From a virus, in the IMG/VR virus record IMGVR_UViG_3300045988_020463, positions 1-33,560 of that record: a stretch of 33,560 nucleotides of DNA; one strand, given 5' to 3'. The notes under the pieces are model-generated. The model saw only the letters and a list, made by a program, of their open reading frames with translations. It ran no database searches and was not told the origin of the DNA. Every line of letters starts with the position of its first letter. Position 1 is the first letter of the stretch. Shown here one piece after another: positions 6,282-33,560 of the stretch. The translations under genes and the position numbers were made by a program.

Positions 6282-6287
6282 TTAGGA

Positions 6288-6319
6288 AATGGAGGGCTGT
6301 TAACAGTTCTCCATTTTTT
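6288..6319 (+). terminator. Rho-independent terminator ending the late block
   Basis: aatggag...ctccatt stem with an inner ctgttaacag palindrome, followed by tttttt. Confidence 0.8.
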
Positions 6320-6335
6320 GTTAACATTCTTTAGA

Positions 6336-6555
6336 CACAGCCTGCACAGTAGAAAAGTGGGTCTGTGCAGGTCTCTGTGCAGTCTAACTCCTTATATTAT
6401 AATACATTATATGTAAATGCACAGTAAACACAGTAAAAAGGGGGTAAAACATTATCCTGGAGAATATACCATTTACCACTATAGAACGAGCTGTAGAAAC
6501 CACTATATTCTATATTAAAGTTTAGAAAAAAGGGTGTGTTTCTGTGCAGTGCAGG
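6336..6555 (+). repeat. Duplicated intergenic element, copy A (partner 23147..23358)
   Basis: By eye, the two flanking blocks are about 85-90% identical to copy B and surround a diverged centre of about 45 bp. Contents: hairpin CCTGCACAG-N13-CTGTGCAGG (6341..6371); further CTGTGCAG at 6375 and 6542; TGCACAG at 6418; AT palindrome TATTATAATA at 6395..6404. Confidence 0.9.
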
Positions 6556-6676: not shown

Positions 6677-6805
6677 CAATGTCAAAAGGAAACAAGGGTT
6701 TCCCGGAAGGCATGAGGTCACCGAGACATTAAATCGGAAATAACCGTGAACAAGTAAGAACGTAGATTTGTTATCATTGTATTAGCGTATAAAACGAAGC
6801 GAAGT

Positions 6806-7030: not shown

Positions 7031-7060
7031 ACCAACGTATTTGCAAAAGCGTTATATTTG
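7019..7060 (+). promoter_or_regulatory. Early promoter, GTTAAC class
   Basis: GTTAAC-aagtga-ACCAAC-N16-TATATTTG. GTTAAC starts exactly 34 nt before the TA of the -7 box. Confidence 0.7.
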
Positions 7061-7086
7061 CACCAACAATTTAAAAAGATAAAGTT

Positions 7087-7362
7087 ATGAAAGGGCAAAA
7101 GTTTATTATCGACGAAGTGAAAAAACATTTGCAGTCGAGCGCGAGGAAGAACAAATACCAAGTTATCGACGCGGTGCAGGAAATGCCGACGTTCGAAGGG
7201 TTTATACTCCCTTACTACGTATCTACAATGGAAGGAACACAATACCCCGTGAACGTTGAAGAAATGTATATCTACTGCGACGAGTGGGACGAGTTCTATA
7301 ATGAGACAGTGGCAAAGGTTGCACAAGCCATTTTGGAAGCCGAACAAATCAAAGAAGCATAA
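7087..7362 (+). CDS. Hypothetical early protein
   Basis: 91-aa ORF downstream of the promoter, with leader caatttaaaaagataaagttATG. Confidence 0.65.
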   Translation: MKGQKFIIDEVKKHLQSSARKNKYQVIDAVQEMPTFEGFILPYYVSTMEGTQYPVNVEEMYIYCDEWDEFYNETVAKVAQAILEAEQIKEA

Positions 7363-8023: not shown

Positions 8024-9202
8024 ATGAAAGAACAAATAGACCACACAAGTAGGGCACACGCCCTACTTTCTCCGAGCAGCTCGCACCGCTGGCTTAACTG
8101 CACACCTTCCGCGCGGTTGGAAGAACCATACGAAAGCACAAGCAGCGCGGCAGCGGACGAAGGGACAGTAGCGCACGAGTTGGCAGAGCACGCAATAGAA
8201 AAGTATTTAGCCGGGGAATACCTACCGTTATTGGACGAATTGCCCGTACCCGATGAGATACGCAATAACAAGTACTATAGCTCAGAGATGGAACACTACG
8301 TAACGGATTACGTTTGCTATGTGTGTGATATATACGAACTGGAGGAAGGCGCTAAAATGAGTATAGAACGAAAGTTCGACCTAACGACATACGTTCCCGA
8401 GTGTTTCGGTAGCTGTGACTGCGACATAGTAGGCGAGACTGTTCTAAACATCATAGACCTAAAATATGGTAAGGGCGTACAAGTGGACGCTAACGGGAAT
8501 AGCCAGTTAATGATGTACGCTATAGGGGTGCTTAACTCCCTGGAACCGCACCACCGCTCGAAGATTGAAAAAGTACGTATGCACATCGCACAAGTACGGT
8601 TAGGCAATTACTCGGTATTTGAGATGTCCGCACGGGACTTGACCCATTGGGCGATACACGTACTACGCCCCACGGCTGAAAAGGCATGGGCTGGGCAAGG
8701 GGAAACCAAAGTAGGAAGCCATTGTAAGTTCTGTAAGTTCAAGGCACAGTGCCGGGCACAGAAAGATGCTTTAGTTAACGAGTTCGAGACCTACGGGGAC
8801 ACAAAGGCGTTAACGCTCGATGAGATAGGCGATATATTAAGCAAGTCCGATATGTTCACGGATTGGCTGGCATCCGTAAAGACATTCGCAATGCAAGCCG
8901 CTACACGGGGCGAAAAGGTCAAGGGGTGGAAGCTTGTAGAGGGTAGGTCAGCACGTGTCATAAACGACACAGAAACAGCCATAGAGCGCCTAAAGGCTAT
9001 CGGGTTATCTACCGAGGACATAACTAACCGCAAACTGAAAGGTATTGGAGACCTTGAACGCCTGGTTGGTAAAAAACCGCTCGCCGCAACTCTTGATGGT
9101 CTGATAGTCAAGCCGCAAGGACTGCCGACATTAGCCCCGGAAAGTGATAAGAGGGAAGAATTAAGCCCTACTATTGATGACTTCGAGGAATTAAATTCAT
9201 AA
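8024..9202 (+). CDS. PD-(D/E)XK nuclease, DUF2800/Cas4-like with a 4-Cys cluster
   Basis: N-terminal LLSPSSSHRWLNCTPS; core IIDLKYGKGVQVDANGNSQLMMYA (D-x-K nuclease motif); C-terminal HCKFCKFKAQC. Together these give the Cys arrangement of Cas4/AddB-type Fe-S nucleases. Confidence 0.85.
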   Translation: MKEQIDHTSRAHALLSPSSSHRWLNCTPSARLEEPYESTSSAAADEGTVAHELAEHAIEKYLAGEYLPLLDELPVPDEIRNNKYYSSEMEHYVTDYVCYVCDIYELEEGAKMSIERKFDLTTYVPECFGSCDCDIVGETVLNIIDLKYGKGVQVDANGNSQLMMYAIGVLNSLEPHHRSKIEKVRMHIAQVRLGNYSVFEMSARDLTHWAIHVLRPTAEKAWAGQGETKVGSHCKFCKFKAQCRAQKDALVNEFETYGDTKALTLDEIGDILSKSDMFTDWLASVKTFAMQAATRGEKVKGWKLVEGRSARVINDTETAIERLKAIGLSTEDITNRKLKGIGDLERLVGKKPLAATLDGLIVKPQGLPTLAPESDKREELSPTIDDFEELNS

Positions 9203-9207
9203 AAGAT

Positions 9208-9249
9208 GTTAACGAAAGAACCAACCTATCAGATAAAGCGTTATATTTG
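9208..9249 (+). promoter_or_regulatory. Early promoter, GTTAAC class
   Basis: GTTAAC-gaaaga-ACCAAC-N16-TATATTTG. Confidence 0.7.
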
Positions 9250-9275
9250 CATTATCAATTTAAAAACAAAACGAT

Positions 9276-9605
9276 ATGAAAAGTAACAACGGTATTTTAA
9301 CAGAGAAAGAGATTCAAGAAAGAACCAAGTTTTGGAACAAAAAACAGTTCCGCACATGGAGCAAGAAAGAACTTGAAAGAACCTCTACAGACATGCAAAA
9401 ACTTTTAGCAGCCCTAAAGGAATTCAGTATGGACGAGATTGAATCTATTAGAAATTCAGACGTGTATAGATTTAGGGCATACGTGGGTGGCTTTAGGGCA
9501 TACGGAAAGAACGACCCGAAGTGTATCGTACGTATGGCAGCCCAAAAGGATATAGACTACGCTATTTCGATAGCACCAAAAACTTTTAAAGTTAAACAAG
9601 GTTAA
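9276..9605 (+). CDS. Hypothetical protein
   Basis: 109-aa ORF with leader caatttaaaaacaaaacgatATG. Confidence 0.65.
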   Translation: MKSNNGILTEKEIQERTKFWNKKQFRTWSKKELERTSTDMQKLLAALKEFSMDEIESIRNSDVYRFRAYVGGFRAYGKNDPKCIVRMAAQKDIDYAISIAPKTFKVKQG

Positions 9606-11413: not shown

Positions 11414-11911
11414 ATGCTGACTTTTGAAAGAGCAAATGAACTTTTCCGCTATGACCCAATTAGCGGAAAAGTTTTTAGGAAAGTAACAACATCGTCAAGG
11501 TCTATTAAGGGCACAGAGGCAGGGTCACTCGATAAGAGAGAACGTTATTTGCGTGTCACAGTTGACGGGGTGGGTTATCAATTACACCGGGTGATAATGC
11601 TTCTCGTACACGGACACCTCGACAAGAGCGTACATGTAGACCATATATCGCACGATAGGGCCGATAATAGGCTGTGTAATTTACGGCTGGTTAGCCTTTC
11701 CGAGAACAACAAAAATAAATCTATGGATAGGCGCAACAGCACGGGGGTAACTGGGGTTAGATTCAACAAAAAATATAATACATGGGGCGCGCATATCGGG
11801 GTAAGTGGAACCGAAATACATTTAGGTTCATTTAAGACCCTGGAAGAAGCCGCCGCCGCCCGTGCTGAAGCTGAAATAAAATATGGATTTCATCCTAACC
11901 ACGGTTTATAA
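11414..11911 (+). mobile_element. HNH homing endonuclease with C-terminal AP2 DNA-binding domain
   Basis: HNH_3 motif VDHISHDRADNRLCNLRLVSLSENNKN. AP2-like GVTGVRFNKKYNTWGAHIGVSGTEIHLGSFKTLEEAAAAR. Free-standing, with its own strong terminator. Confidence 0.85.
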
Positions 11912-11962: not shown

Positions 11963-12029
11963 CTTGTTTATTAAAAACATTGTTGTACCTTCGCCGTTAT
12001 AATAGTAATAACAATTAAAACAAGTGATT

Positions 12030-14048
12030 ATGCGAAATTTATTTATTGACTTCGAAACATTTAGTACTACGGACATTAAAAGCGCCGGTAACTATAAATA
12101 CTGTGAGGACGAGAATTTCGAGATTCTTCTTTGCGGTTACATGTGGGACACCGACACGGACGTTACAATTATCGACTTAACGAAGCCCGAAGGACTGGAC
12201 GAGTTTAACGAGTTGTTTACATATGTACAGAACAACGAGGAAGTTGTAATAGTAGCACACAACGCTACGTTTGAACGTATCTGTTTGCGTGAATATGGGT
12301 TTGACATCAGCCCTATGCGCTTTTTCTGTACGGCAAATATGTCGTTATATTGTGGTATGCCCGCATCACTGGAGGCGGTATCCAATATTCTAAACCTTGA
12401 CGACAAGAAGAAGGGCACGGGCAAAAACCTTATCCGTTATTTTTCTATCCCGTGCAAGCCTACCAAAACAAACGGAGGGCGCACACGTAATTTACCGGAA
12501 CACGCCCCCGAGGACTGGGAAGAGTTCATCGATTACCTACGTTATGATGTGCTTTCAGAAAAGGAGATATTCGGTAAGCTGTCCCGGTTTGAGTTCCCGG
12601 AAGAAGAACAACGCATCTATGCAGCAGACCAGCGTATAAACGATTACGGTATATTGGCAGACCTCGAGCTGGCACACGCCGCGCAGGATATGGACGAAGA
12701 ATATAAAGCACGCCTTACCGAGAAAGCCGAAAAGGAATTCGGGTTGAGTTCTCTAAAGTCCATGCCGCAGTTAAAGAGCTTCATTAAAGAGCGTACGGGC
12801 GTGGTTATCGATTCCCTCAATAAGAATAGTATTGAAGAGGTGATAAAGACCGTAGCGAGCCTTAAAAACGTTACTGACGAGGATAAGCAAGCGGTGTTAG
12901 ACGTTATAGACCTACGTAGGGAGATAGGTAAAACGTCGAATGCCAAGTACACCGCCATGCTTGCAAGCGCCGGACGGGGCAACCGTATTAGAGGACTATT
13001 CCGTTACTATGGTGCGAGCCGTACCGGGCGATGGGCCGGGCGCTTGGTCCAGCTGCAAAACCTACCGCAAAACCATATCGAAGACCTGGACGGGGCGCGA
13101 GACTTGGCAAAGATGCACGACCTGGATATGATGGAATTAATATATGACAAGCCTACGCATATACTATCGCAGCTTATACGTACCGCGTTCATCGCCCCCG
13201 AGGGGTACACGTTCTCCGTGGCCGACTTCTCGGCTATTGAAGCCAGGGTAATTGCTTGGGTTGCCAACGAGCAATGGCGTTTAGACTTATTTAACGACCC
13301 GAAGGCAGATATTTATTGTGCCTCTGCCTCTAAAATGTTCGGCGTACCGGTACACAAGGGGGACGATTTAAGGCAGCGCGGAAAGGTTGCGGAGCTTGCA
13401 TTAGGATATGGTGGCGGCGTTAACGCGCTTACCACAATGGATATTAAAAAAGAGTTAAAAGACGAAGAGAAACCTCAAATTTTGTCAAAATGGAGAGAAG
13501 CTAATAAAAAAGTAGTATCTTTGTGGCGTTCGTTAGAAGATTGTGCAAAACGATGTATTGGAACGAGACGCGAACAAGTTTATAGGATAAACGATGTTTC
13601 GAGTATTATATTCCGATACGAGAGCGGCGCAATGACTATCGAAATACCGAGCGGTAGAAAGCTATTCTACCCGTCTGCAAGAATGGGAAAACGCACTATC
13701 GAAGGCGTTAACGGCTCGTTTGAGGTTGAGGATATCTCCTATATGGGCCAAGACCAAACCTCCGGGAAATGGGTCAAACTAAACACCTACGGAGGCAAGC
13801 TAACAGAGAACGTCGTGCAAGCAATAGCCCGTGACTTGCTGGCAAATGCGATTTTCAAGGTTTTTGATTTAGGCTTTAATATCGTGTTGCATGTTCACGA
13901 TGAGATAGCCGCCGAGATACCAAAAGACGGAAACGAAGAAAAGACGCTGCAAATAATGAGTGATGCCATGTGCAACGCCCCGAGTTGGGCAAAGGGCATA
14001 CCATTAAGAGCAGCAGGTTATATTACTGATTATTACAAAAAAGATTAA
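12030..14048 (+). CDS. Family A DNA polymerase with 3'-5' exonuclease domain
   Basis: Exo motifs FIDFETFS, HNATFE and YLRYDV. Polymerase motif A is DFSAIEARV, motif B is RQRGKVAELALGYGGG, and motif C is VHDEI. ATG 12030 is preferred over the track GTG at 12024. Confidence 0.92.
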   Translation: MRNLFIDFETFSTTDIKSAGNYKYCEDENFEILLCGYMWDTDTDVTIIDLTKPEGLDEFNELFTYVQNNEEVVIVAHNATFERICLREYGFDISPMRFFCTANMSLYCGMPASLEAVSNILNLDDKKKGTGKNLIRYFSIPCKPTKTNGGRTRNLPEHAPEDWEEFIDYLRYDVLSEKEIFGKLSRFEFPEEEQRIYAADQRINDYGILADLELAHAAQDMDEEYKARLTEKAEKEFGLSSLKSMPQLKSFIKERTGVVIDSLNKNSIEEVIKTVASLKNVTDEDKQAVLDVIDLRREIGKTSNAKYTAMLASAGRGNRIRGLFRYYGASRTGRWAGRLVQLQNLPQNHIEDLDGARDLAKMHDLDMMELIYDKPTHILSQLIRTAFIAPEGYTFSVADFSAIEARVIAWVANEQWRLDLFNDPKADIYCASASKMFGVPVHKGDDLRQRGKVAELALGYGGGVNALTTMDIKKELKDEEKPQILSKWREANKKVVSLWRSLEDCAKRCIGTRREQVYRINDVSSIIFRYESGAMTIEIPSGRKLFYPSARMGKRTIEGVNGSFEVEDISYMGQDQTSGKWVKLNTYGGKLTENVVQAIARDLLANAIFKVFDLGFNIVLHVHDEIAAEIPKDGNEEKTLQIMSDAMCNAPSWAKGIPLRAAGYITDYYKKD

Positions 14049-14051
14049 ATT

Positions 14052-16490
14052 ATGGAATTGAGAAAAATGGTTTTTAAAATTGCTACGGCGAGCAGCGCAA
14101 AGTCTACTTCATGGAAAAACCGCTCCTACTCATGGGACGAGTTAACCGAGAAGCTGACAAAGGCAACCGTTACGGACGAGACGTACCGGGAGTTTATGAG
14201 CGCGAGCAAAGTCGAGCAGGGTAATATTAAAGACGTAGGCGCATTCATGGGCGGCGAGTTGTTCGGTAGCCGTAGAAACAAAAACAATGTCGGTGAGCGC
14301 TCTATATTGGCGCTTGATATTGACTACGGAGAAAAGAACTTCCCCGAGGCGTTCTACTCGGTTATTAATTGCGCATGTATCATTCACGGTACGCACAAGC
14401 ATAACCCGAAAGCAAATACGCTCCGTTACCGTGCCATCATCCCGTTGTCCGAACCAGTGGACGGGGAGCAATACGAAGCTATCGCCCGAAAGGTTGCAGA
14501 ATTAACGGGCATCGACTTGTACGACCGCACCACCTTTCAACCCGAGCGCTGCATGTTCTTCCCGTCGGTTTCCAAAGACGTAGAGTATGAGTTTATAGAT
14601 TACTCAGCGTTTAACGAAAGCCCTTTGGACGTGCAGAAGTATTTGGGCATGTACGACGATTGGAGCGATACGACCGAATGGGCATACCACAAGGACGAGA
14701 AGGGCGAAGCCCGGACACTCGCCAAGGAACAACAAGACCCAACACTAAAAGAGGGTAACGTAGGCGACTTCTGTAGAGCATACACGATTAGCGAGGTTAT
14801 CGCGGAATACCTACCGGACGTGTACGAACCGACCGACCAGGAAGACAGATGGACGTATACGGGCGGTTCCACATCGGGCGGCATGCTTACCTTTGATGAT
14901 ATGTTTGCCTACTCGTTCCATAACAACGACCCGATACAAGGCAACCATGTGTTCAACGCCTACGACCTTGTGCGTGTACACAAGTTCGGTAAGCTGGATA
15001 AGGGCGCGGATAGGAAGAACTCCACCGAGGCTATGAACGAATTGGTAAACAAGGACGCGAAGGTAGCCGCGGCACGTGCCCGAATGCTTGCGGTTAAGGC
15101 TGGAGAAATCATGGATGATTTCGACGATGTTATAGAAGTAGAGGAAGTGACGGACAGCGACGTAGCGACTACCTACGAGGACGCAATGGCGAAACTGGAA
15201 ACGGACAAGCGCGGAGCTTACCTACCGTCTGCAAAGAACTTAGGGCTGATAATGAAGTACGACCCGAATTTAAAGGGGCTTATTGCACGAGACCTATTTA
15301 AAGAACGACGGGTTGTTACACGCATACCTCCTTGGCGCGCAAAGGATAGTTCTTTGGACTTCCAAGACGTGGACTATTCGGGCGTACGTAAACACATTGA
15401 AGACGTGTACGGCATATCGAATAGTGCGAAGATTGACGATGCTATAGCGCTATCCGCCGAGATGAACTCATTCCACCCGGTGCAGGAATACCTAACAAAA
15501 TTAAAGTGGGACGGTATCGAAAGAGTCGATAAGGCTTTAATTCACATCATGGGCGCCGAGGATAACATATACACCCGTGAGGCATTCCGCATCATGATGG
15601 TGGGGGCGGTTAAGCGTATCTTTCAAAAGGGCTGCAAGTTCGACAGTATGTTAGTGCTCCAGTCCGAGCAGGGCGCCGGAAAGAGCACATTTATTCGGAT
15701 GCTTGGCAAACATTGGTTCTCCGATAGTCTTTCGAGCATGGACGGAAAAAGCGCGTTTGAACAATTGCAGGGTAACTGGATATTGGAGGTAGCCGAGTTG
15801 TCGGCAATGAGACGTTCAGAGGTTGAAGGCGTGAAAAACTTCATTTCTAAAACCGAGGACAGCTTTAGACCGGCATACGGGCGCGTTACTAAGAACTTCC
15901 CCCGGCAATGTATCTTTATAGGTACGACCAACCGGGACGAATTTCTAAAGGACGATACGGGCGGCAGACGCTTTTTGCCCGTGAAGGTCAAGGCGAACGC
16001 CAATACGCACCTTATCTTTGAGAAGGGTTTCGACGATTACGTAGACCAGCTTTGGGCGGAAGCCGTACAAATGTATTTCCGAAAAGCGAGTACGTTGTTA
16101 TCCCATGAAGCCGAGGAAATCGCCGAGAAAGGACGCGAAGAGCATTACGAAGCCGACCCCCGTACCGCATCAGTAGAAGCGTATTTGGATATGCTCGTAC
16201 CGGCAGATTGGCGGCGTATGTATGTGAACGAAAGGCGCATGTACTTTAGGGAGTACGATGCATCGAAGGTAGACCCGGAAGACTTTACACTGGAAAAGAT
16301 GGACTTCGTGTCTATTATGCAAATCGCTACGGACGTGTTCGAGATGGAAGTAGGGCGCGTAACAACCAAGGAAAGCCGCGAAATAGCCGCCATCATGTCT
16401 AAAGTACAAGGGTGGCAGCGCGCGGCGAATGGAAAAACCGTCGCAGGTATCGGACGCACGCGAGGGTTTGAGCGTATTGTTAACGAGTGA
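14052..16490 (+). CDS. Bifunctional primase-polymerase (AEP) / VirE-type P-loop helicase
   Basis: N-terminal AEP-like LALDIDY and HGTHKH...RYRAIIPL. Central Walker A SEQGAGKST and Walker B-like ILEVAEL, in the VirE/D5-like arrangement. 812 aa. Confidence 0.85.
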   Translation: MELRKMVFKIATASSAKSTSWKNRSYSWDELTEKLTKATVTDETYREFMSASKVEQGNIKDVGAFMGGELFGSRRNKNNVGERSILALDIDYGEKNFPEAFYSVINCACIIHGTHKHNPKANTLRYRAIIPLSEPVDGEQYEAIARKVAELTGIDLYDRTTFQPERCMFFPSVSKDVEYEFIDYSAFNESPLDVQKYLGMYDDWSDTTEWAYHKDEKGEARTLAKEQQDPTLKEGNVGDFCRAYTISEVIAEYLPDVYEPTDQEDRWTYTGGSTSGGMLTFDDMFAYSFHNNDPIQGNHVFNAYDLVRVHKFGKLDKGADRKNSTEAMNELVNKDAKVAAARARMLAVKAGEIMDDFDDVIEVEEVTDSDVATTYEDAMAKLETDKRGAYLPSAKNLGLIMKYDPNLKGLIARDLFKERRVVTRIPPWRAKDSSLDFQDVDYSGVRKHIEDVYGISNSAKIDDAIALSAEMNSFHPVQEYLTKLKWDGIERVDKALIHIMGAEDNIYTREAFRIMMVGAVKRIFQKGCKFDSMLVLQSEQGAGKSTFIRMLGKHWFSDSLSSMDGKSAFEQLQGNWILEVAELSAMRRSEVEGVKNFISKTEDSFRPAYGRVTKNFPRQCIFIGTTNRDEFLKDDTGGRRFLPVKVKANANTHLIFEKGFDDYVDQLWAEAVQMYFRKASTLLSHEAEEIAEKGREEHYEADPRTASVEAYLDMLVPADWRRMYVNERRMYFREYDASKVDPEDFTLEKMDFVSIMQIATDVFEMEVGRVTTKESREIAAIMSKVQGWQRAANGKTVAGIGRTRGFERIVNE

Positions 16491-16497
16491 TAACAGA

Positions 16498-16515
16498 GGG
16501 GGCGTAAAAGCCCCC
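16498..16515 (+). other. Hairpin after the primase gene (no U-tract)
   Basis: gggggc-gtaaaa-gccccc. No T-run follows. Confidence 0.35.
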
Positions 16516-16570
16516 AAATGTTAACTAACTGTTAACAGAATAACTAAATGAGGTTTATTTCTTAAATGGT

Positions 16571-16612
16571 GTTAACGGAATATACAACCTATCGTTATTT
16601 GCCGTATATTTG
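16571..16612 (+). promoter_or_regulatory. Early promoter, GTTAAC class
   Basis: GTTAAC-ggaata-TACAAC-N16-TATATTTG. Two further GTTAAC boxes lie upstream at 16520 and 16531. Confidence 0.7.
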
Positions 16613-16654
16613 TAATGTCAAAAGGAAATAATAACAATTTAAAAACAAAAGATT

Positions 16655-16795
16655 ATGACTAAGTATTACGTAAATGGAAAGCAAATTTCAAAGCAAGAAG
16701 CTAACGAGATTAAAAAAGAAAATGCAAGATTGCAAAAGAGTACAGACCTTAACGACTGGTTGGGCATTCAATGGATTACAGAGATAAACAAATAA
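16655..16795 (+). CDS. Small hypothetical protein (46 aa, below the ORF-track cutoff)
   Basis: MTKYYVNGKQISKQEANEIKKENARLQKSTDLNDWLGIQWITEINK. Preceded by a 27-nt leader identical to that of the next gene (16631..16657 equals 16851..16877). Confidence 0.6.
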   Translation: MTKYYVNGKQISKQEANEIKKENARLQKSTDLNDWLGIQWITEINK

Positions 16796-16874
16796 AAGTT
16801 AATAGGGCAATAACGGTGAACCTTCCTAAAGCTTCCGTTGTTCTTATAGTATAACAATTTAAAAACAAAAGATT

Positions 16875-17348: not shown

Positions 17349-17759
17349 ATGAAAAAGTTAGTAGTATTAGCAGTGTTAATTCTTACAAGTGTATCAATGT
17401 TTAGCCAAATCACGTCACAAGGCAAGCCCAATGTATTGAAGTCCTTCCGTATGGGCATTTGCAAATTGGTTGATACCAATGGGGAAATAACCATCGAGGC
17501 ATTGACGCGAGAGACCCAAAGGTATACAATGATAGTCCATTTAGGTACACCCGAGGAAGCGGCGGTAACGCTTGCGAGCCTTGCAGAATACAAACCCAGT
17601 AAGGGTGAGACGGTGAACCTAAACAACCCGAGCAACAACGAGGCGTATTATCAGAATCTTGGCGGCACATGGGTAATCACGGAGAAGTTAACGAAGATTT
17701 TCAGTATTTCCGTAAGCCGTGGAGAGCTTAGGAAAATGGTCAAAGCGTTGGAAAATTAA
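17349..17759 (+). CDS. Putative secreted protein
   Basis: MKKLVVLAVLILTSVSMFSQ is a Sec-type signal peptide. Consensus-like leader aaaaagaaaagattATG. Confidence 0.7.
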   Translation: MKKLVVLAVLILTSVSMFSQITSQGKPNVLKSFRMGICKLVDTNGEITIEALTRETQRYTMIVHLGTPEEAAVTLASLAEYKPSKGETVNLNNPSNNEAYYQNLGGTWVITEKLTKIFSISVSRGELRKMVKALEN

Positions 17760-17798
17760 AGAAGTGTTTTTGTATATACAATTTAAAAAGAAAAGATT

Positions 17799-18002
17799 AT
17801 GAAAAGTGGAAACTTTATCGAACTGACGTTCGTAGTTAAGGGTGAATTGCAAGTGGAGTATATCAACGTTGAACACGTATCTCGTATCATGTACGTAGAT
17901 GGCAAACCATTTATCGGTATGCTGGGGCAGACCTACACGCGCCAACTAACGGAAACAGGCATGCAAGAACTAACGGAGTGTATTAACTTAGAAAACAATT
18001 AA
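17799..18002 (+). CDS. Hypothetical protein
   Basis: 67-aa ORF with leader caatttaaaaagaaaagattATG. Confidence 0.6.
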   Translation: MKSGNFIELTFVVKGELQVEYINVEHVSRIMYVDGKPFIGMLGQTYTRQLTETGMQELTECINLENN

Positions 18003-19097: not shown

Positions 19098-19416
19098 AAA
19101 AGATTTGGAGCGTACATTCTCCGAAAAGCTTAACCGAACAAAAAAGGTGTGGGTAATAAAACTATTATCCACATTTATAAAAGGTTTGCCGGATAGAATG
19201 ATACTTTGCCGGGGTGGGTATGTAGGCTTTGCCGAGATAAAGACCACGGGTAAGAAACCAACTAAGATACAATTACTTATACATAGCAAGTTAGAGGCTT
19301 TAGGTTTCAAAGTATTTGTTATCGACGATTTGGAAAGCAGGGACGCAGCGATAAGTTTCTTCTTAAGAAATGTTAAGGAAATAAACAACGTACCGGGAAA
19401 AGGGTTATCTTTGTAG
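19078..19416 (+). CDS. VRR-NUC domain nuclease
   Basis: GLPDRMILCRGGYVGFAEIKTTGKKPTKIQ matches the VRR-NUC catalytic core (PD...E.K...Q). Confidence 0.8.
   Translation: MKEIISEKDLERTFSEKLNRTKKVWVIKLLSTFIKGLPDRMILCRGGYVGFAEIKTTGKKPTKIQLLIHSKLEALGFKVFVIDDLESRDAAISFFLRNVKEINNVPGKGLSL
19372..19413 (+). promoter_or_regulatory. Early promoter, GTTAAC class (variant GTTAAG), embedded in the VRR-NUC 3' end
   Basis: GTTAAG-gaaata-AACAAC-N16-TATCTTTG, with the same 34-nt and 16-nt spacings as the other members. Confidence 0.6.
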
Positions 19417-19439
19417 TATCGAATTAAAAAACAGAAATC

Positions 19440-19682
19440 ATGAAAAAGAGAAGTTTAAAAGAAGAAATCGAATACCGTTTAGGTATGTACTTTGGTATTA
19501 AGTCGGGCGCGCTGTATGTCCGTGACGATAAGTTCGGTAACACCGAGGAAATTCTAAACCAGTTGCAACGCGATATTACCCGGGACGTTAATTTCCTATC
19601 GCGTAAAACGCTGGGTTACGTATCGGATGAGCAGGACTTCAAAAGCATTTGTGTGTTTTATAAAACAAAATTAATGAAGTAA
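19440..19682 (+). CDS. Hypothetical protein
   Basis: 80-aa ORF with leader gaattaaaaaacagaaatcATG. Confidence 0.65.
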   Translation: MKKRSLKEEIEYRLGMYFGIKSGALYVRDDKFGNTEEILNQLQRDITRDVNFLSRKTLGYVSDEQDFKSICVFYKTKLMK

Positions 19683-21248: not shown

Positions 21249-21394
21249 AAAAGTTAATAGCGGTTATTGCAGTCCTACTTTTATTGGTAGGCTGCACCGC
21301 AGTACAGAACGCCACGGACAGCATGCAACGCAATTTCAAGCTACAGCAATTAGAGTACGGGCTATCGCTTAAGGATAGTTTAATACTTAAATGA
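21245..21394 (+). CDS. Small lipoprotein (49 aa)
   Basis: ATGA overlap with the SNF2 stop. MKKLIAVIAVLLLLVGCTAV has a textbook lipobox, LVGC. The track ORF 21050..21394 extends upstream only as an out-of-frame overlap with SNF2. Confidence 0.65.
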   Translation: MKKLIAVIAVLLLLVGCTAVQNATDSMQRNFKLQQLEYGLSLKDSLILK

Positions 21395-21395
21395 T

Positions 21396-21437
21396 GTTAA
21401 CGAAAGAACCAACATAACGGGAAAAGCGTTATATTTG
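21396..21437 (+). promoter_or_regulatory. Early promoter, GTTAAC class
   Basis: GTTAAC-gaaaga-ACCAAC-N16-TATATTTG. Confidence 0.7.
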
Positions 21438-21463
21438 TATCAACGATTTAAAAACAGAAGATT

Positions 21464-21727
21464 ATGGAAAAGTATTCAGGAGCAGTTAGGGAGATGTATT
21501 CACAGTTTAAACAGAGAGAAGTCCACCCGATGGAAAAGTACATAGGACGATTCGTTAGACATCGGGGCGGAATTTTGGAAGTAGTAGGGTACTCCGTAAG
21601 GCCTGACGGCTCGTTCTGTCTGATAGTAGGTTGTGCGCGTGCATGGTATTATCCGAACGCAGAAGACGTAGTATTTAAAAGGTGCGAGGCCTATTGCTAC
21701 GCCAGTGTTAATGATTTAATAGATTAG
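21464..21727 (+). CDS. Hypothetical protein (shares a YxGRxV...VVGY motif with the next ORF)
   Basis: 87-aa ORF with leader gatttaaaaacagaagattATG. Confidence 0.65.
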   Translation: MEKYSGAVREMYSQFKQREVHPMEKYIGRFVRHRGGILEVVGYSVRPDGSFCLIVGCARAWYYPNAEDVVFKRCEAYCYASVNDLID

Positions 21728-22316: not shown

Positions 22317-22604
22317 ATGACTAAAGAACCAAAGCTTCCCCATAAGCTTAAGTGGGGCGATAAGACAGCCGCAGTGGTTGACGAAGTGGGATACCTTATC
22401 GGTATTAGAATAGTGGGCTACACGAGCCTAAAAGACGTGATTATAGCCGAGGTGCACGAAAGTGTGGCGTACGGAGTGGGCGCGTGGAGCATGCCCGAAG
22501 ACTTAAAGAGCGCGGGCAGCAGCGACGTGTTTATGAAGAAGCCGCGCGCCGGGGCATATTACAAGTATATAAAGCTTAAAAACATCGTGCATGAAGAAAG
22601 TTAG
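22317..22604 (+). CDS. Hypothetical protein
   Basis: 95-aa ORF with an A-rich leader (aaggataagaaaATG). Confidence 0.6.
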   Translation: MTKEPKLPHKLKWGDKTAAVVDEVGYLIGIRIVGYTSLKDVIIAEVHESVAYGVGAWSMPEDLKSAGSSDVFMKKPRAGAYYKYIKLKNIVHEES

Positions 22605-22986
22605 TTTTATGGATATGGCGGTATGCCTTAACTGTCATGTGTTCATCATATGGGAGTTCATACGAAGGTACGGTTATACCGCCGGGGTAACAAAAGACAA
22701 GTACGGGCGCGGTTATGTGGAAGCCAATCTTTGCAACGGTTGGATTGATAAGCTGGCAAAGTATGTAGCCGCCCAGGACTTCACGTATAAGCAGCCCATC
22801 AATAAAAGGCAGTACCTTATTAGGGATGAGGCACGCCTCGCAGAGGAGAAAAGAAACGAGCAGGACATATCGAGAACCTACGGAATTGACCCGGACGGAA
22901 GGATAAAAAGGGTATCAACGTTCAAGAACGGAACTGTTCAAACGTGGTATTGGTATCGGTCCTCGCTCGGGTGGAAATTGACATAA
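22591..22986 (+). CDS. Hypothetical protein, last gene of the early block
   Basis: 131-aa ORF. The start may instead be ATG 22609, just after the upstream stop. Confidence 0.6.
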   Translation: MKKVSFMDMAVCLNCHVFIIWEFIRRYGYTAGVTKDKYGRGYVEANLCNGWIDKLAKYVAAQDFTYKQPINKRQYLIRDEARLAEEKRNEQDISRTYGIDPDGRIKRVSTFKNGTVQTWYWYRSSLGWKLT

Positions 22987-22998
22987 TGTAAGCACCCC

Positions 22999-23044
22999 CG
23001 AAGGACGTGTCGAACTAAGTGTCAGCGCCCTCGAAGGACGTGTC
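22999..23044 (+). repeat. Two 13-bp direct repeats, CGAAGGACGTGTC, spaced 33 bp start to start
   Basis: Exact copies at 22999..23011 and 23032..23044, between the last early stop codon and the terminator. Confidence 0.85.
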
Positions 23045-23063
23045 AAGTCGAGTGATAGCGATT

Positions 23064-23106
23064 AGCCCAAATCTGATTACAAAATGTCAGATTTGGGCTT
23101 TTGTTT
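23064..23106 (+). terminator. Rho-independent terminator ending the early block
   Basis: Perfect 13-bp stem agcccaaatctga/tcagatttgggct followed by ttttgttt. Confidence 0.9.
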
Positions 23107-23146
23107 ATATTCAGAAAAAAGGGCCTCTAAATTTAACATATTTTAT

Positions 23147-23358
23147 GCACACCTGCACAGTAAAAAATCGCTACTGTGCAGGTCTCTGTGCACTCTAACT
23201 CTCTCTATTATAATATATTATATGTAAATGCACAGATACACAGTAAAAAGAGGGTAAAACATTATTTTGGAGAAAAGTGTATTTTAGGGGGTATGAAATA
23301 TACTATATCCTATATTAAAGTTTAGAAAAAAAGGTGTGTGTCTGTGCAGGTGCCTGCA
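23147..23358 (+). repeat. Duplicated intergenic element, copy B (partner 6336..6555)
   Basis: Contents: hairpin CCTGCACAG-N13-CTGTGCAGG (23152..23182); CTGTGCAC at 23186; TGCACAG at 23229; CTGTGCAG at 23342; TATTATAATA at 23206..23215; terminal palindrome TGCAGG-tg-CCTGCA at 23345..23358. Confidence 0.9.
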
Positions 23359-23482: not shown

Positions 23483-23490
23483 TACCTTTG
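23483..23490 (+). promoter_or_regulatory. Candidate late promoter -7 box (TACCTTTG)
   Basis: Matches TAnnTTTG, but no convincing -33 element was seen (TTGG lies about 20 nt upstream). It would drive transcription through the 17-mer array into terS. Confidence 0.3.
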
Positions 23491-23515
23491 TGCCATGATT
23501 GGAAACGACGTGAGT

Positions 23516-23614
23516 AGTCCAACTACTGGAATAGTCCAACTACTGGAATAGTCCAACTACTGGAATAGTCCAACTACTGGAATAGTCCAACTACTGGAAT
23601 AGTCCAACTACTGG
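23516..23614 (+). repeat. Tandem array of a 17-bp unit, AGTCCAACTACTGGAAT: 5 perfect copies plus one 14/17 copy
   Basis: Counted base by base, with units starting at 23516, 23533, 23550, 23567, 23584 and 23601. Each unit contains the inverted pair TCCA-N5-TGGA. The array ends 77 nt upstream of the terS ATG. Confidence 0.95.
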
Positions 23615-23690
23615 TCTACTACTCTTGCATCTCTTTAAGAGACCGCGGGCACACACGTGCGATACCTTATTAATACCAAATAACAAAAAT

Positions 23691-24317
23691 ATGGCAGGAA
23701 GAGCAAAGAAGGAGGCCGCCCCCGATACGAAAGCGGCAATTACCAAGGGACAAGCGACGGGCAAAGCCCCCGCCCCTAAAACAGATTTGAAGAAGTGCAA
23801 AGAACTTTATGAGGTTGTGCAGACGCGCGGTTGCAAAGGCGCTACGTTGACTACCGTCGAGGAGTGCGTAGATTACGTAGCCGAGTACATGAACTTTTGC
23901 GCACGTAACCCGCTCATTACTTATGAAGTCCTAAAAGGTGGGAACGCAGCAGGGCAAAAAGTCCCTATAGAGAAGAAACGCGCGCCATCGCTTGGTGGCT
24001 TCTGCCTTTTCATCGGATGGACTTTGCAAGCGTTCAAGAAGAACGGCGCACGACTTGAAAAGCTGGCAGAGGACGGGAACGAAGACGCGGCCAACCTTTT
24101 GACAGGGTACGCCCTTATCGCCGAACTCATCGCAACCGATATGGACGAAAGCGCGCTCGCCGGCGTGGTTGATGCCAACTATATGGCGAAGCTTAGAGGA
24201 CTACGCGACCTTAAGGACGTTACAAGCAACGGCAAGGAAGCCGGCACGAAGGCTATGCAGGTAAACGTGCTTTCAGAGGATGCAGTGAAGAACCTACAGA
24301 AGTTAGGAGGCATATAA
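23691..24317 (+). CDS. terS: Probable terminase small subunit (P22 gp3-like pattern)
   Basis: Immediately upstream of terL. Lys-rich N-terminus, then KRAPSLGGFCLFIGWTLQAFKKN, which resembles the HTH-like segment of gp3-type TerS. Start moved from the track position 23625 to ATG 23691 (leader aaataacaaaaatATG). Confidence 0.6.
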   Translation: MAGRAKKEAAPDTKAAITKGQATGKAPAPKTDLKKCKELYEVVQTRGCKGATLTTVEECVDYVAEYMNFCARNPLITYEVLKGGNAAGQKVPIEKKRAPSLGGFCLFIGWTLQAFKKNGARLEKLAEDGNEDAANLLTGYALIAELIATDMDESALAGVVDANYMAKLRGLRDLKDVTSNGKEAGTKAMQVNVLSEDAVKNLQKLGGI

Positions 24318-32567: not shown

Positions 32568-33548
32568 ATGAAATTTAGAAAACTTAGAATTATTCAAGCC
32601 GGGGTTACTACCAATTTTGGGACATATGAAGGCAAGGAATTTCCGTTGGTTATTACGGAGACCGCGGTTCAAAGCGTTGTAACGCTCGGCAACCTAAAGC
32701 CTATCCATTGCAGGCGTACCCATAACGGGGCGGATATGTTGGACGGGTATTTAGGAAAATTCACTAACTTCATTTATGAGGATGGCGTAGCTTATGCCGA
32801 TTTGGAATTATCCGAAGCCTTACAAGCCGCCTACCCATCGGAGGCAAAATTCATCTCCGAGATGATAAAGAACGAGCCCGATATGTTGGGCGTTTCGGTG
32901 GTGGGCATCAACAATCAGACATTAAACGGTGATGTGCTGGACGTTACCGAATTTTTTGAATTATATTCATGCGATTTGGTAGGACTTCCAGCAGCCACCA
33001 CAAGCTTATTTAATAATCAAAACGAAAAGAAGATGAACAAATTTTTTAGTTCTTTCGCAGAGCTATTTAAAAAGTCGAGCTTTGCAACAGAGACGGTTGA
33101 AACCGTAGACGGTGCAAGTATCACGATTGAAGCGGCTGGCGAAACAATGGCTATCGGCGACAAGGTTTTCGATAGCGAAGGCAATGCCCACCCGGACGGC
33201 AAAGTAGAAGTGCAGGTTGAGGACGGTGTATTGGTTATCACCATTGCAAACGGTGTTATCGAAAGCGTAGAAGCCAAGGTAGAAGAAGAGGAAAAGGAAG
33301 AAAAAGAAGAAAAAGAAGAGATTGAAACCCCGGCAACCGCTGATGTACCCAAAGAGTTTGCAAACCGTATGGCAGCTTTGGAAACTTCGGTTACCGAACT
33401 CACCGCAACAATAGAGGCTATGACGGCTCAATTTAACAGAGCGACACCGAAACCCGGCGTACCGCCCGTTAACATGCCGAAGAAGAAAGAAACAAAATTG
33501 TCTAAAGAGGCTGTATCAGAAGCAGCTAAAAGATTTTACAACAAGTAA
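32568..33548 (+). CDS. Prohead serine protease (HK97 gp4/S78-like) fused to a C-terminal scaffold-like domain
   Basis: CRRTHNGADMLDGYLG, GVSVVG and ELYSCDLVGLPAATTSLF parallel the S78 blocks (nHd..iG, GlSiGf, EvSlV..PA). The C-terminal half has the acidic tract EEEEKEEKEEKEE and a helical tail. Start moved from the track position 32511 to ATG 32568, behind the -7 box. Confidence 0.75.
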   Translation: MKFRKLRIIQAGVTTNFGTYEGKEFPLVITETAVQSVVTLGNLKPIHCRRTHNGADMLDGYLGKFTNFIYEDGVAYADLELSEALQAAYPSEAKFISEMIKNEPDMLGVSVVGINNQTLNGDVLDVTEFFELYSCDLVGLPAATTSLFNNQNEKKMNKFFSSFAELFKKSSFATETVETVDGASITIEAAGETMAIGDKVFDSEGNAHPDGKVEVQVEDGVLVITIANGVIESVEAKVEEEEKEEKEEKEEIETPATADVPKEFANRMAALETSVTELTATIEAMTAQFNRATPKPGVPPVNMPKKKETKLSKEAVSEAAKRFYNK

Positions 33549-33560
33549 CTAAAAAAAAAC
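33462..33560. repeat. Terminal overlap, copy 2 (identical to 1..99)
   Basis: See copy 1. Confidence 0.95.

What the first reader, a model, noticed from the sequence alone, without database searches (positions are those of the whole stretch)
23152..23235. Internal grammar of the duplicated element: octamer array, a hairpin with conserved stem and diverged loop, and an AT-rich palindrome
- **Hairpin:** Both copies carry the perfect inverted repeat CCTGCACAG-N13-CTGTGCAGG. The 13-nt spacer differs at 7 of 13 positions (tagaaaagtgggt versus taaaaaatcgcta), while both 9-nt arms are intact. That pattern points to selection on pairing or on dimer binding rather than on the spacer sequence.
- **Octamer array:** The octamer or its heptamer core recurs three more times per copy: CTGTGCAG/C 4 nt downstream of the hairpin, TGCACAG about 45 nt downstream of that, and CTGTGCAG near the 3' end.
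- **Enrichment:** By visual scan this gives about 10 occurrences in about 430 bp, against essentially none elsewhere in the genome.
- **AT-rich palindrome:** Between the octamers lies a conserved palindromic tract (TATTATAATA, then ATTATATG) that resembles a DNA-unwinding element.
- **Interpretation:** Repeated boxes plus an AT-rich tract is classic origin or operator architecture.
Basis: partly seen in the sequence, partly recalled or inferred. Interest (0 to 1): 0.72.

Follow-up and report, generated by a model that had tools for sequence, protein, structure and literature searches.

The report
Twin iteron-type phage replication origins
The duplicated 230-bp element of this Bacteroides phage is most likely a pair of replication origins, each made of short repeated boxes around an AT-rich core that the phage's own primase-helicase reads with a small DNA-binding wing; this is a familiar kind of origin in an unusual two-copy layout.

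Summary
The heptamer TGCACAG/CTGTGCA occurs 12 times in the 33.5-kb circular genome, 10 of them in two ~230-bp elements. These are copy A (6321-6555) and copy B (23133-23351).

The window is a Bacteroides uniformis siphophage related to EMB1, EMB2 and BU183P1. Every relative that covers both positions carries both copies, one at each boundary between gene modules.

Box spacing is almost invariant, and the block between boxes 3 and 4 is 70-84% AT. The box word changes in concert at all boxes and both copies between lineages: TGCACAG, TGACCAG, TTACACAG, GACACAG. More distant relatives use TGGCACA, TGTCACA or TGTAACA.

Among 2,735 variable protein columns, the four that track box class best are residues 793, 794, 796 and 789 of the phage primase-helicase. 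They lie in the beta-hairpin wing of its C-terminal domain. That domain models onto the iteron-binding winged-helix domain of the SaPI1 Rep1 helicase (PDB 7pds).

The "hairpin" is two oppositely oriented binding boxes, not a conserved stem. It is interrupted in 24% of copies and does not fold in the TGACCAG class. No RNA structure, Rfam match or promoter was found in the element.

Best reading: twin iteron origins of the SaPI Rep / P4 alpha type. Binding and origin firing are inferred, not shown.

The parts
6321..6555 (+). Element copy A (putative oriA). It runs from TTAACAT to the doubled 3' box CTGTGCAGTGCAGG, between the last late/lysis-module ORF (5691-6281) and the first early ORF (6806-7030).
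   Evidence: (D8, D10, D14). It is conserved at this position in all close relatives.
23133..23351 (+). Element copy B (putative oriB), which contains the finding 23152-23235. It lies between the last early/middle ORF (22591-22986) and terS (23625-24317).
23154..23180 (.). Boxes b1 (TGCACAG, 23154-23160) and b2 (CTGTGCA, 23174-23180), an inverted pair with a 13-nt A-rich spacer. The copy A equivalent is 6343-6369.
   Evidence: Start-to-start spacing is 20 nt in 73 of 78 copies. Complementarity is not universal.
23186..23192 (-). Box b3 (CTGTGCA), 12 nt after b2. Copy A: 6375-6381.
23193..23228 (.). AT-rich block (candidate DNA-unwinding element), CTCTAACTCTCTCTATTATAATATATTATATGTAAA. Copy A: 6382-6417.
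   Evidence: The AT fraction is 0.70-0.84 in 78 copies against 0.54 for the genome. The b3-to-b4 spacing is 43 nt in 71 of 78 copies. There are 43 distinct sequences. The CTAACT...TATTATA motif also occurs in distant lineages.
23229..23243 (+). Boxes b4 (TGCACAG) and b5 (TACACAG), in tandem. Copy A: 6418-6433.
   Evidence: The spacing is invariant in all 78 copies.
23342..23351 (-). Distal box b6 (CTGTGCAGGT). In copy A it is 6542-6555 and is doubled.
23244..23341 (.). Conserved non-box blocks (GGGTAAAACATTAT..TGGAGAA and CACTATAT..AAAGTTTAGAAAAAA) around a variable stretch. Their role is unknown. Copy A: 6434-6541.
14052..16490 (+). Primase-helicase gene (812 aa; VapE-like SF3 helicase domain at residues 481-699), the proposed initiator that reads the boxes.
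   Evidence: Pfam PF05272, E 4.6e-80. PDB 7pds by sequence, E 7.6e-80. Foldseek match to 7pds, E 1e-37, TM 0.83.
16170..16487 (+). C-terminal domain of the primase-helicase (residues 707-812), predicted to be winged-helix-like.
   Evidence: AF2 pLDDT 90.8. Foldseek matches the 7pds C-terminal domain with TM 0.79-0.84, followed by weak matches to winged-helix DNA-binding domains.
16416..16445 (+). Codons for residues 789-798, the tip of the beta-hairpin wing. Residues 789, 793, 794 and 796 co-vary with the box word.
23064..23099 (+). Intrinsic terminator closing the early/middle module, directly upstream of copy B.
   Evidence: 14-bp stem followed by a T run.
6287..6320 (+). Hairpin plus T run (AAATGGAG..CTCCATTTTTT) closing the late module, directly upstream of copy A.
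   Evidence: Read by eye. The scan did not call it.

Best explanation
Each copy is an iteron-type origin of replication, or at least a loading site, for the phage's own primase-helicase (gene 14052-16490).

**Proposed steps**
1. After early expression, the C-terminal winged-helix domains of the helicase subunits bind the heptamer boxes. Each copy has six good boxes.
2. The boxes lie as an inverted pair (b1/b2) plus b3 on one side of a 36-bp AT-rich block, the tandem pair b4/b5 on the other side pointing the opposite way, and a distal b6.
3. Assembly of the hexamer on this array melts the AT-rich block.
4. The helicase self-loads, its N-terminal part primes, and the phage family-A polymerase extends.

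The box word and the tip of the protein's beta-hairpin wing (residues 789-796) form a matched specificity pair that has switched several times in this phage group. The genome carries two such arrays roughly half a circle apart, each in the gap between the terminator of one gene module and the promoter of the next.

**Shown:** enrichment of the boxes, their conservation and fixed spacing, the concerted box switching, the box-wing co-variation, and the structural equivalence of the C-terminal domain to an iteron-binding domain.

**Inferred:** binding, melting, initiation, and whether both copies fire.
For: 1. **Enrichment.** 10 of the 12 genomic TGCACAG heptamers lie in the two elements, against 3.2 expected genome-wide.
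2. **Conservation.** Both copies are present at the same two module boundaries in the 10 GenBank relatives fetched and in all IMG/VR loci that span both positions. These loci were selected by helicase similarity, not by the boxes.
3. **Geometry.** b1-to-b2 is 20 nt, b2-to-b3 is 12, b3-to-b4 is 43, and b4-to-b5 is fixed in 78 of 78 copies. The central block is 70-84% AT yet has 43 distinct sequences.
4. **Concerted switching.** The word changes at all boxes and both copies: TGCACAG, TGACCAG, TTACACAG, GACACAG. Relatives whose helicase is 58-77% identical use TGGCACA, TGTCACA, TGTAACA, TGGAACA or CGGAACA; arrays are seen at both equivalent positions for TGGCACA, TGTCACA and TGTAACA, and only at the downstream position in the single loci carrying TGGAACA and CGGAACA. 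The TGACCAG-class isolate BU183P1 and the TGCACAG-class isolates all infect B. uniformis, which argues against a host factor.
5. **Association scan.** Primase-helicase residues 793, 794, 796 and 789 rank 1, 2, 4 and 6 of 2,735 variable columns in 30 ORFs. No label permutation out of 100,000 reached the observed value.
6. **Wing triad against box class in 49 loci**:
   - NGT (27 loci): all TGCACAG with a GG flank.
   - D/E-A-x (8 loci): all TTACACAG.
   - GRA (4 loci): all TGACCAG.
   - NAP (2 loci): GACACAG.
   - KAP, RQA, GAA, KAS (8 loci): TGCACAG, 7 of 8 with a TT flank.
   - Outside the wing the protein is mosaic, and several non-TGCACAG loci are closest to TGCACAG loci. Clonal linkage therefore does not explain the pattern.
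7. **Structure.** These residues lie between strands 788-790 and 795-797 of the model. The C-terminal domain superposes on that of SaPI1 Rep1 with TM 0.79-0.84, and the whole helicase does so with E 1e-37.
8. **Precedent.** In SaPI Reps this domain is a winged helix that reads 5-6-nt iterons. Their ori has 6-12 iterons around a central AT-rich region, with at least two on each side in opposite orientation (PMC9371898). P4 alpha has the same primase, SF3 helicase and winged-helix layout (PMC2777425).
Against: - There is no experimental binding or replication data.
- GC skew is positive all the way round, with no switch at the elements, so composition gives no independent support for an origin.
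- SaPI origins lie immediately downstream of rep. Here the arrays are 7.5 kb upstream and 6.6 kb downstream of the gene, and no boxes follow it.
- TGCACAG-class phages carry at least five different wing variants, so the wing is not a one-to-one code for the core word. It correlates with flank bases in 7 of 8 cases.
- One locus (L198) breaks that flank correlation.
- The copy B variant of BU1-1 and BU3-1 changes only boxes b2 and b4, in a mutually complementary way. The simple model does not predict this.
- About 100 bp of strongly conserved non-box sequence in each copy is unexplained.
Confidence: 0.65

Rival explanations
1. Only one copy is the true origin. The other is a cis-acting helper, like the crr region of phage P4, that shares the iterons and works by protein-mediated looping. 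Alternatively, the two serve different replication phases (early theta and late rolling circle).
For: Both copies share all the boxes, but they differ consistently in three ways: the variable stretch (10 nt longer in A), the b5-to-b6 distance (115 against 104-105 nt) and the doubled b6 in A. P4 needs two separated iteron regions (own knowledge; the domain layout of P4 alpha is given in PMC2777425).
Against: Both copies keep the complete architecture, including the AT-rich block and the same spacing. P4 crr, by contrast, is not a copy of ori.
Confidence: 0.2
2. The boxes are operators. A phage DNA-binding protein, possibly the primase-helicase itself or an unrecognised regulator, binds both arrays to control the early promoter downstream of copy A and the late promoter downstream of copy B.
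For: Each copy sits between a terminator and the next Bacteroides-type -7 motif (TATATTTG at 6669-6676, TACCTTTG at 23483-23490, read by eye; terminator). That places them at the two points where module expression could be switched.
Against: - The last box lies 120-134 nt upstream of the -7 motifs, and no promoter consensus lies inside the element (and direct reading).
- None of the small early or middle proteins has a DNA-binding Pfam domain.
- None co-varies with the box word. The only association is with the helicase wing.
- An AT-rich block of fixed length flanked by opposed boxes is origin geometry, not operator geometry.
Confidence: 0.12
3. The element acts as RNA or as single-stranded DNA. 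The boxes would be arms of stems: a hairpin b1:b2, possibly b3:b4 and b5:b6, or alternative pairings as in attenuators or put-like antitermination elements.
For: In this genome the hairpins are stable as single strands (-9.6 and -12.1 kcal/mol, z -3.7 and -6.7). Some arm differences are G-T wobble compatible. The BU1-1/BU3-1 variant changes b2 and b4 in a complementary way.
Against: - RNAalifold finds nothing beyond box-box pairings on either strand.
- Rfam has no match.
- All the would-be helices use the same word, which structure alone does not require.
- 19 of 78 copies have interrupted stems. The TGACCAG class has a fixed internal A-G mismatch and folds no better than shuffles.
- Each copy follows a terminator, or a terminator-like hairpin with a T run, and has no promoter of its own.
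Confidence: 0.05
4. The element is a mobile or recombination element (MITE-like repeat, invertible promoter flanked by b1/b6, resolution site) or a packaging or partition site.
For: Boxes b1 and b6 form a 10-bp inverted repeat flanking 181 bp in copy B. There are two direct copies per genome.
Against: - There are exactly two copies, always at the same two positions and in the same orientation, in about 60 genomes. No inverted isoforms were seen.
- No copy was found in bacterial genomes apart from one phage-like contig binned into a MAG.
- No recombinase, ParAB or integrase was found among the annotated genes.
- terS shows no association with the boxes.
Confidence: 0.03

Closest known systems
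SaPI Rep / ori system of Staphylococcus aureus pathogenicity islands (Rep1, PriRep5; PDB 7pds, 7ola; PMC9371898)
   Same: - A VapE-like SF3 self-loading helicase-initiator: sequence E 7.6e-80 and Foldseek E 1e-37 to Rep1.
- The C-terminal domain has the same fold (TM 0.79-0.84).
- Short iterons in both orientations flank a central AT-rich region, with two or more on each side pointing opposite ways.
- Iteron specificity is tied to the cognate protein.
- A primase is fused to the helicase, as in PriRep5.
   Different: - The boxes are heptamers or octamers rather than penta- or hexamers.
- The array is not immediately downstream of the helicase gene. It is present twice, 7.5 kb upstream and 6.6 kb downstream.
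- Each copy carries about 100 bp of extra conserved sequence and a distal sixth box.
- The replicon is a lytic Bacteroides siphophage, not a satellite island.
Bacteriophage P4 alpha protein with ori and crr
   Same: A single polypeptide carries a primase, an SF3 helicase and a C-terminal winged-helix origin-binding domain (PMC2777425). Octamer iterons occur in two separated cis regions of a small circular genome (own knowledge of the P4 literature; not re-read here).
   Different: P4 alpha belongs to the D5/P4 helicase branch and has a DnaG-type primase. Its crr is not a full copy of ori. Here both copies are complete and lie about 180 degrees apart.
Bacillus phage SPP1 oriL / oriR
   Same: The phage genome has two dispersed origin regions that share binding boxes for the phage initiator next to AT-rich DNA (own knowledge; not verified here).
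   Different: The initiator (G38P) is unrelated and is separate from the helicase, which needs a loader. One SPP1 origin lies inside the initiator gene.
Lambdoid ori iterons / O protein
   Same: Repeated inverted-repeat boxes lie next to an AT-rich tract, and the initiator's specificity co-varies with the iterons among related phages (own knowledge).
   Different: Lambdoid phages have a single origin inside the initiator gene. The initiator is not a helicase and recruits the host DnaB.

Membership tests
Iteron origin served by a self-loading VapE/Rep-type SF3 initiator-helicase (SaPI Rep-ori type) | The same genome encodes a VapE-like SF3 helicase | tested here: met
   Pfam PF05272, E 4.6e-80. 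phmmer to 7pds, E 7.6e-80. Foldseek, E 1e-37, TM 0.83.
Iteron origin served by a self-loading VapE/Rep-type SF3 initiator-helicase (SaPI Rep-ori type) | The helicase has a C-terminal winged-helix DNA-binding domain | tested here: met
   The AF2 model of the C-terminal domain has pLDDT 90.8. It superposes on the Rep1 C-terminal domain with TM 0.79-0.84 and rmsd 2-3.5 A, followed by weak hits to forkhead, IRF and PerR winged helices. This rests on a predicted structure only.
Iteron origin served by a self-loading VapE/Rep-type SF3 initiator-helicase (SaPI Rep-ori type) | 6-12 short iterons around a central AT-rich region, with at least two on each side in opposite orientation | tested here: met
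   Boxes b2 and b3 (reverse) and b4 and b5 (forward) flank a 36-bp block that is 70-84% AT. Boxes b1 and b6 are additional. Spacing is fixed.
Iteron origin served by a self-loading VapE/Rep-type SF3 initiator-helicase (SaPI Rep-ori type) | The iteron word is matched to the cognate initiator (specificity pairing) | tested here: met
   Wing residues 793, 794, 796 and 789 are the top-ranked columns of 2,735. The wing triad partitions box class perfectly in 49 loci. This is statistical co-variation, not a binding assay.
Iteron origin served by a self-loading VapE/Rep-type SF3 initiator-helicase (SaPI Rep-ori type) | [quoted passage not shown] | tested here: not met
   No boxes lie in 16491-16874. 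The two arrays are at 6321-6555 and 23133-23351.
Iteron origin served by a self-loading VapE/Rep-type SF3 initiator-helicase (SaPI Rep-ori type) | The protein binds the iterons, melts the AT-rich region, and the DNA supports replication | not testable with these tools
   This needs EMSA or footprinting, marker-frequency analysis or plasmid origin assays.
P4-type ori + crr | Two separated cis regions share the initiator's iterons | tested here: met
   Two arrays lie 16.8 kb apart with the same word.
P4-type ori + crr | Alpha-type initiator (DnaG-like primase, D5/P4-type SF3 helicase and winged helix) | tested here: inconclusive
   The layout (N-terminal region, SF3 helicase, winged helix) is the same. 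However, the helicase is VapE-type, and the N-terminal 390 residues match no Pfam primase family.
Structured non-coding RNA or RNA cis-element | Conserved secondary structure supported by compensatory changes, or a match to a known RNA family | tested here: not met
   Rfam has no match. RNAalifold finds only box-box pairs. Stems are interrupted in 19 of 78 copies and the TGACCAG class does not fold.
Operator array of a transcription regulator | The boxes overlap or adjoin a promoter, and a cognate regulator is encoded | tested here: not met
   The nearest -7-like motifs are 120-134 nt downstream (direct reading). No DNA-binding domain was found in 20 small ORFs. No regulator co-varies with the boxes.
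Intrinsic terminator (for the b1/b2 hairpin) | A GC-rich stem followed by a T run | tested here: not met
   The stem is followed by TCTCTGTGCA. It was not called. The real terminators lie upstream of the elements.

The most novel reading that the evidence does not exclude
The two antipodal arrays may be a functionally coupled pair, not redundant origins. By sitting exactly between the terminator of one module and the promoter of the next, primase-helicase assembly at copy A and copy B would link replication to the early-to-late transcription switch. For example, firing or looping at copy B could license the late promoter. The hypervariable wing and iteron pair would also act as an incompatibility or identity system that keeps co-infecting relatives from using each other's replication machinery.
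Probability: 0.15. Interest if true: 0.75.

Novelty: new variant of a known kind. Interest (0 to 1): 0.5.

Why it matters
No origin of replication has been described for these Bacteroides uniformis phages. The only paper found on them is a genome announcement that does not mention repeats or origins.

- **A concrete hypothesis.** The analysis names the origins, the initiator and the residues that read the boxes for a common group of human-gut phages.
- **A natural specificity table.** About ten wing variants are paired with five or more box words. This could be used to work out how the winged-helix wing of VapE/Rep-type helicases reads DNA.
- **A layout to test.** Two complete origins half a genome apart are unusual for a 33-kb phage, and this can be tested directly by marker-frequency sequencing.
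- **Practical use.** Origin and initiator pairs are useful parts for building Bacteroides phage vectors and for explaining exclusion between related phages.

Tried and rejected
- **Rfam and tRNA/tmRNA scans** found nothing.
- **RNAalifold on both strands** found only box-box pairs.
- **GC and AT skew** are positive all round, so they give no origin or terminus signal.
- **Sigma-70-type promoter scan** gave counts no higher than in shuffles. The Bacteroides -7 consensus is absent inside the element (and direct reading).
- **Invertible-promoter idea** (b1/b6 inverted repeat): all of about 80 copies are in one orientation.
- **Host-factor site:** rejected because the word switches among isolates that all infect B. 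uniformis (BU183P1 versus the TGCACAG-class isolates).
- **Coarse per-protein identity against box class:** no signal. Only the column-wise scan revealed the wing.
- **The first 'diagnostic residue' result** looked weak because the wing is hypervariable. A larger sample selected independently of the boxes resolved it.
- **The exact-hairpin pattern search in IMG/VR** is biased towards intact stems, so it was not used for the stem statistics.
Copies were then confirmed by BLAST and nhmmer.
- **Protein search with the C-terminal 160 aa** returned only 13, mostly fragmentary, hits.
- **Bacterial genome scan:** chance hits, plus one phage-like contig in a MAG.
- **Literature:** nothing on these elements.

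Full report
**What the window is.** The first and last 99 bases of the 33,560-base window are identical. It is therefore a circular assembly of about 33,461 bp. All credible genes lie on the + strand. It is about 88-90% identical over most of its length to the Bacteroides uniformis siphophages BU183P1, BU730P1, EMB1, EMB2, BU241P1 and C2_18_80S2P. Their annotations and Pfam give the following map:
- terS at 23625, terL, then head and tail genes running across the window ends.
- Portal at 3172, holin and endolysin, and a DUF6549 protein ending at 6281.
- From 6806, the early and replication genes: a DUF2800 nuclease, an Enc34-type SSB, a family-A DNA polymerase (12024-14048), a VapE-like primase-helicase (14052-16490), an SNF2 helicase, and small ORFs up to 22986.

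**Checking the observation.** The inverted repeat CCTGCACAG-N13-CTGTGCAGG is present exactly at 6341-6371 and 23152-23182. CTGTGCAG occurs 7 times, all in the two copies, against 0.48 expected. The core heptamer TGCACAG occurs 12 times, 10 of them in the copies, against a Markov-3 expectation of 3.2.

The duplicated unit is about 230 bp: 6321-6555 and 23133-23351. Copy B follows an intrinsic terminator (23064-23099). Copy A follows a hairpin with a T run that I read by eye and that the scan did not call. Each copy ends 120-134 nt before the next Bacteroides-type -7 motif (direct reading). One small correction: the two spacers differ at 6 of 13 positions, not 7.

**Relatives.** All 13 GenBank relatives hold two places matching the element. 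I fetched 10 of these genomes. I then fetched 70 IMG/VR loci chosen by similarity to the primase-helicase, with 10-kb flanks, so that the sample is independent of the boxes. A profile search found the element at both positions wherever the locus reached them. This gave 78 copies.

In these copies the spacing is almost invariant:
- b1-to-b2 is 20 nt, and b2-to-b3 is 12 nt.
- b3-to-b4 is 43 nt.
- b4-to-b5 is fixed in 78 of 78 copies.
- b5-to-b6 is 104-105 nt in copy B and 115 nt in copy A.

The block between b3 and b4 is 70-84% AT, against 54% for the genome, and has 43 different sequences. The palindrome TATTATAATA is present in 62 of 78 copies. So length and AT-richness are conserved rather than the palindrome.

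**The key pattern.** The box word is not constant. It changes in concert at every box and in both copies of a genome:
- TGCACAG/CTGTGCA in most genomes.
- TGACCAG/CTGGTCA or CTGGGCG in BU183P1 and three IMG/VR contigs.
- TTACACAG/CTGTGTAA in eight loci.
- GACACAG/CTGTGTC in four loci.

Relatives whose helicase is only 58-77% identical keep the same kind of array with still other words: TGGCACA, TGTCACA, TGTAACA, TGGAACA and CGGAACA. For TGGCACA, TGTCACA and TGTAACA the arrays are seen at both equivalent positions, and the two loci read in full (TGGCACA and TGTCACA) also keep the CTAACT...TATTATA block. The single loci with TGGAACA and CGGAACA show only the downstream array. The TGACCAG-class isolate BU183P1 and the TGCACAG-class isolates all infect B. 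uniformis. A host factor is therefore unlikely, and a co-evolving phage factor is expected.

**Is it a hairpin or an RNA?** In the unbiased sample, 59 of 78 copies keep 7 or more contiguous pairs between b1 and b2. The other 19 do not, and the TGACCAG class always carries an internal A-G mismatch. As single-stranded DNA the arms of this genome fold well (-9.6 and -12.1 kcal/mol). Those of BU183P1 fold no better than shuffles. RNAalifold on either strand finds only box-to-box pairs, and Rfam finds nothing. The arms are best seen as two oppositely oriented copies of one recognition word at a fixed distance of two helical turns.

**Which protein?** I aligned every ORF product to its homologues in the loci. 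For each variable column I measured the association between residue and box class.
- With strict coverage (4,980 columns), the best column was primase-helicase residue 793, followed by 794 and 796. The only other high values came from a hypervariable 87-aa ORF whose columns carry many residues each.
- With symmetric uncertainty over 2,735 variable columns in 30 ORFs, residues 793, 794, 796 and 789 rank 1, 2, 4 and 6. No label permutation out of 100,000 reached the observed value for residue 793.

Across 49 loci with a complete protein, the triad 793/794/796 partitions the classes without exception:

| Wing triad | Loci | Box class |
|---|---|---|
| NGT | 27 | TGCACAG with a GG flank |
| DAS, EAP, EAA | 8 | TTACACAG |
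| GRA | 4 | TGACCAG |
| NAP | 2 | GACACAG |
| KAP, RQA, GAA, KAS | 8 | TGCACAG, 7 of 8 with a TT flank |

Outside the wing the protein is mosaic. Several TTACACAG and GACACAG loci are closest to TGCACAG loci. None of the genes lying between the helicase 3' end and either element shows a comparable association; the only other high-scoring columns are the noise-like ones of the hypervariable 87-aa ORF. Simple linkage therefore does not explain the match.

**What the protein is.**
- Pfam finds a VapE-like domain at residues 481-699.
- The best solved relative is 7pds, E 7.6e-80.
- An AlphaFold2 model of the full protein (64-sequence alignment, pLDDT 87) matches 7pds with E 1e-37 and TM 0.83 over the whole target. 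Other primase-helicases follow: ASFV PrimPol, NrS-1, poxvirus D5/E5 and SaPI5 PriRep5.
- The C-terminal 106 residues, modelled alone (pLDDT 90.8), superpose on the 7pds C-terminal domain with TM 0.79-0.84 and rmsd 2-3.5 A. Weak matches to winged-helix DNA-binding domains follow.
- Residues 789-796 form the tip of the beta-hairpin after the long helix 772-784, which is the wing.

7pds is SaPI1 Rep1. According to PMC9371898, SaPI Reps are self-loading helicases that also act as initiators through a winged helix in the C-terminal domain. That domain recognises penta- or hexanucleotide iterons. The ori holds 6-12 iterons around a central AT-rich region, with at least two on each side pointing in opposite directions. 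Binding and melting do not need ATP. PMC2777425 describes the same layout of primase, SF3 helicase and winged helix for phage P4 alpha and for pRN1 ORF904.

**Conclusion on mechanism.** The element has the anatomy of such an origin. Boxes b2/b3 and b4/b5 oppose each other across an AT-rich block, and b1 and b6 are additional. The genome encodes the matching class of initiator-helicase, and the DNA word and the protein wing have switched together repeatedly.

I therefore read copies A and B as twin iteron origins, or helicase-loading sites. What is shown is sequence statistics, conservation, co-variation and predicted structural equivalence. Binding, melting and firing are inferred by homology.

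**Differences from the SaPI type.** The arrays are remote from the gene rather than directly downstream of it. There are two of them, 49-54% of the circle apart in six complete genomes. Each carries about 100 bp of further conserved sequence of unknown role. P4 (ori plus crr) and SPP1 (oriL and oriR) are precedents for two cis regions (own knowledge), but neither has two complete copies.

**Rivals.**
- An ori-plus-helper arrangement cannot be separated from two equal origins with these tools.
- An operator role is not excluded as a secondary function, but it lacks a regulator and promoter proximity.
- RNA or ssDNA structure, mobile-element, invertible-switch and packaging readings are each contradicted by specific results.

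**Unexplained.**
- In copy B of BU1-1 and BU3-1, only b2 (CTGAGTCG) and b4 (ATACTCAG) changed, and they changed in a mutually complementary way.
- TGCACAG-class phages carry several wing variants, and one of them (L198) breaks the flank correlation.
- GC skew gives no independent origin signal.

**Verdict.** This is a new variant of a known kind of origin, of moderate interest. Its main value is a directly testable origin, initiator and specificity hypothesis for gut Bacteroides phages.

Noticed in passing
window 23515-23614: A perfect 17-nt tandem repeat (TAGTCCAACTACTGGAA, 5.9 copies) lies between copy B and the terS start at 23625. Relatives carry only 1-2 copies of the unit, so this is a strain-specific expansion. 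It may be a terS- or pac-related site.
   Followed up: partly
window 21464-21727: This 87-aa ORF is hypervariable (46-62% identity, many residues per column) among genomes whose neighbouring genes are 80-98% identical. It looks like a diversifying gene of unknown function.
   Followed up: partly
window 22987-23052: Two tandem 33-nt repeats (..CCCCGAAGGACGTGTC..) lie directly after ORF 22591-22986 and before the terminator at 23064-23099 (D15).
   Followed up: no
L054 16747-16998 and L056 17605-17856 (copy B of phages BU1-1 and BU3-1): Box b2 became CTGAGTCG and box b4 became ATACTCAG. The changes are mutually complementary, while the other boxes keep TGCACAG. The simple iteron model does not explain this.
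   Followed up: partly
window 6434-6541 and 23244-23341: Non-box blocks (GGGTAAAACATTAT..TGGAGAA and CACTATAT..AAAGTTTAGAAAAAA) are conserved in both copies and in all box classes. They show no promoter consensus and no RNA structure.
   Followed up: partly
window 1-99 and 33462-33560: The 99-nt ends are identical, which is the overlap of a circular assembly. The unique genome is about 33,461 bp (D7).
   Followed up: yes
window 11414-11911: This ORF is an HNH endonuclease (Pfam HNH_3, with a weak AP2 match) inserted between the metallophosphatase-like gene and the DNA polymerase. Only some relatives have a similar gene, as expected of a mobile homing endonuclease.
   Followed up: no
window 6646-6695, 7007-7107, 9196-9296, 16582-16664, 17758-17818, 19360-19460, 21384-21484: Families of repeated Bacteroides-type promoter and leader sequences (..TATATTTGCA.. 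then ATTTAAAAACAAAAGATTATG) lie in front of early and middle genes. They are absent from the late module (D1 and D3-D6).
   Followed up: no
L242 687-949: A full copy of the element (nhmmer E 1e-69) lies on a 15.8-kb contig binned into an 'Acholeplasmataceae' MAG. It is most likely a mis-binned phage contig.
   Followed up: partly
window 16416-16445 (primase-helicase residues 789-798): The wing tip is hypervariable in public data well beyond the loci analysed. Further variants appear in protein clusters P0001-P0011, for example AGTRA, AGQKA and AGAKS.
   Followed up: partly
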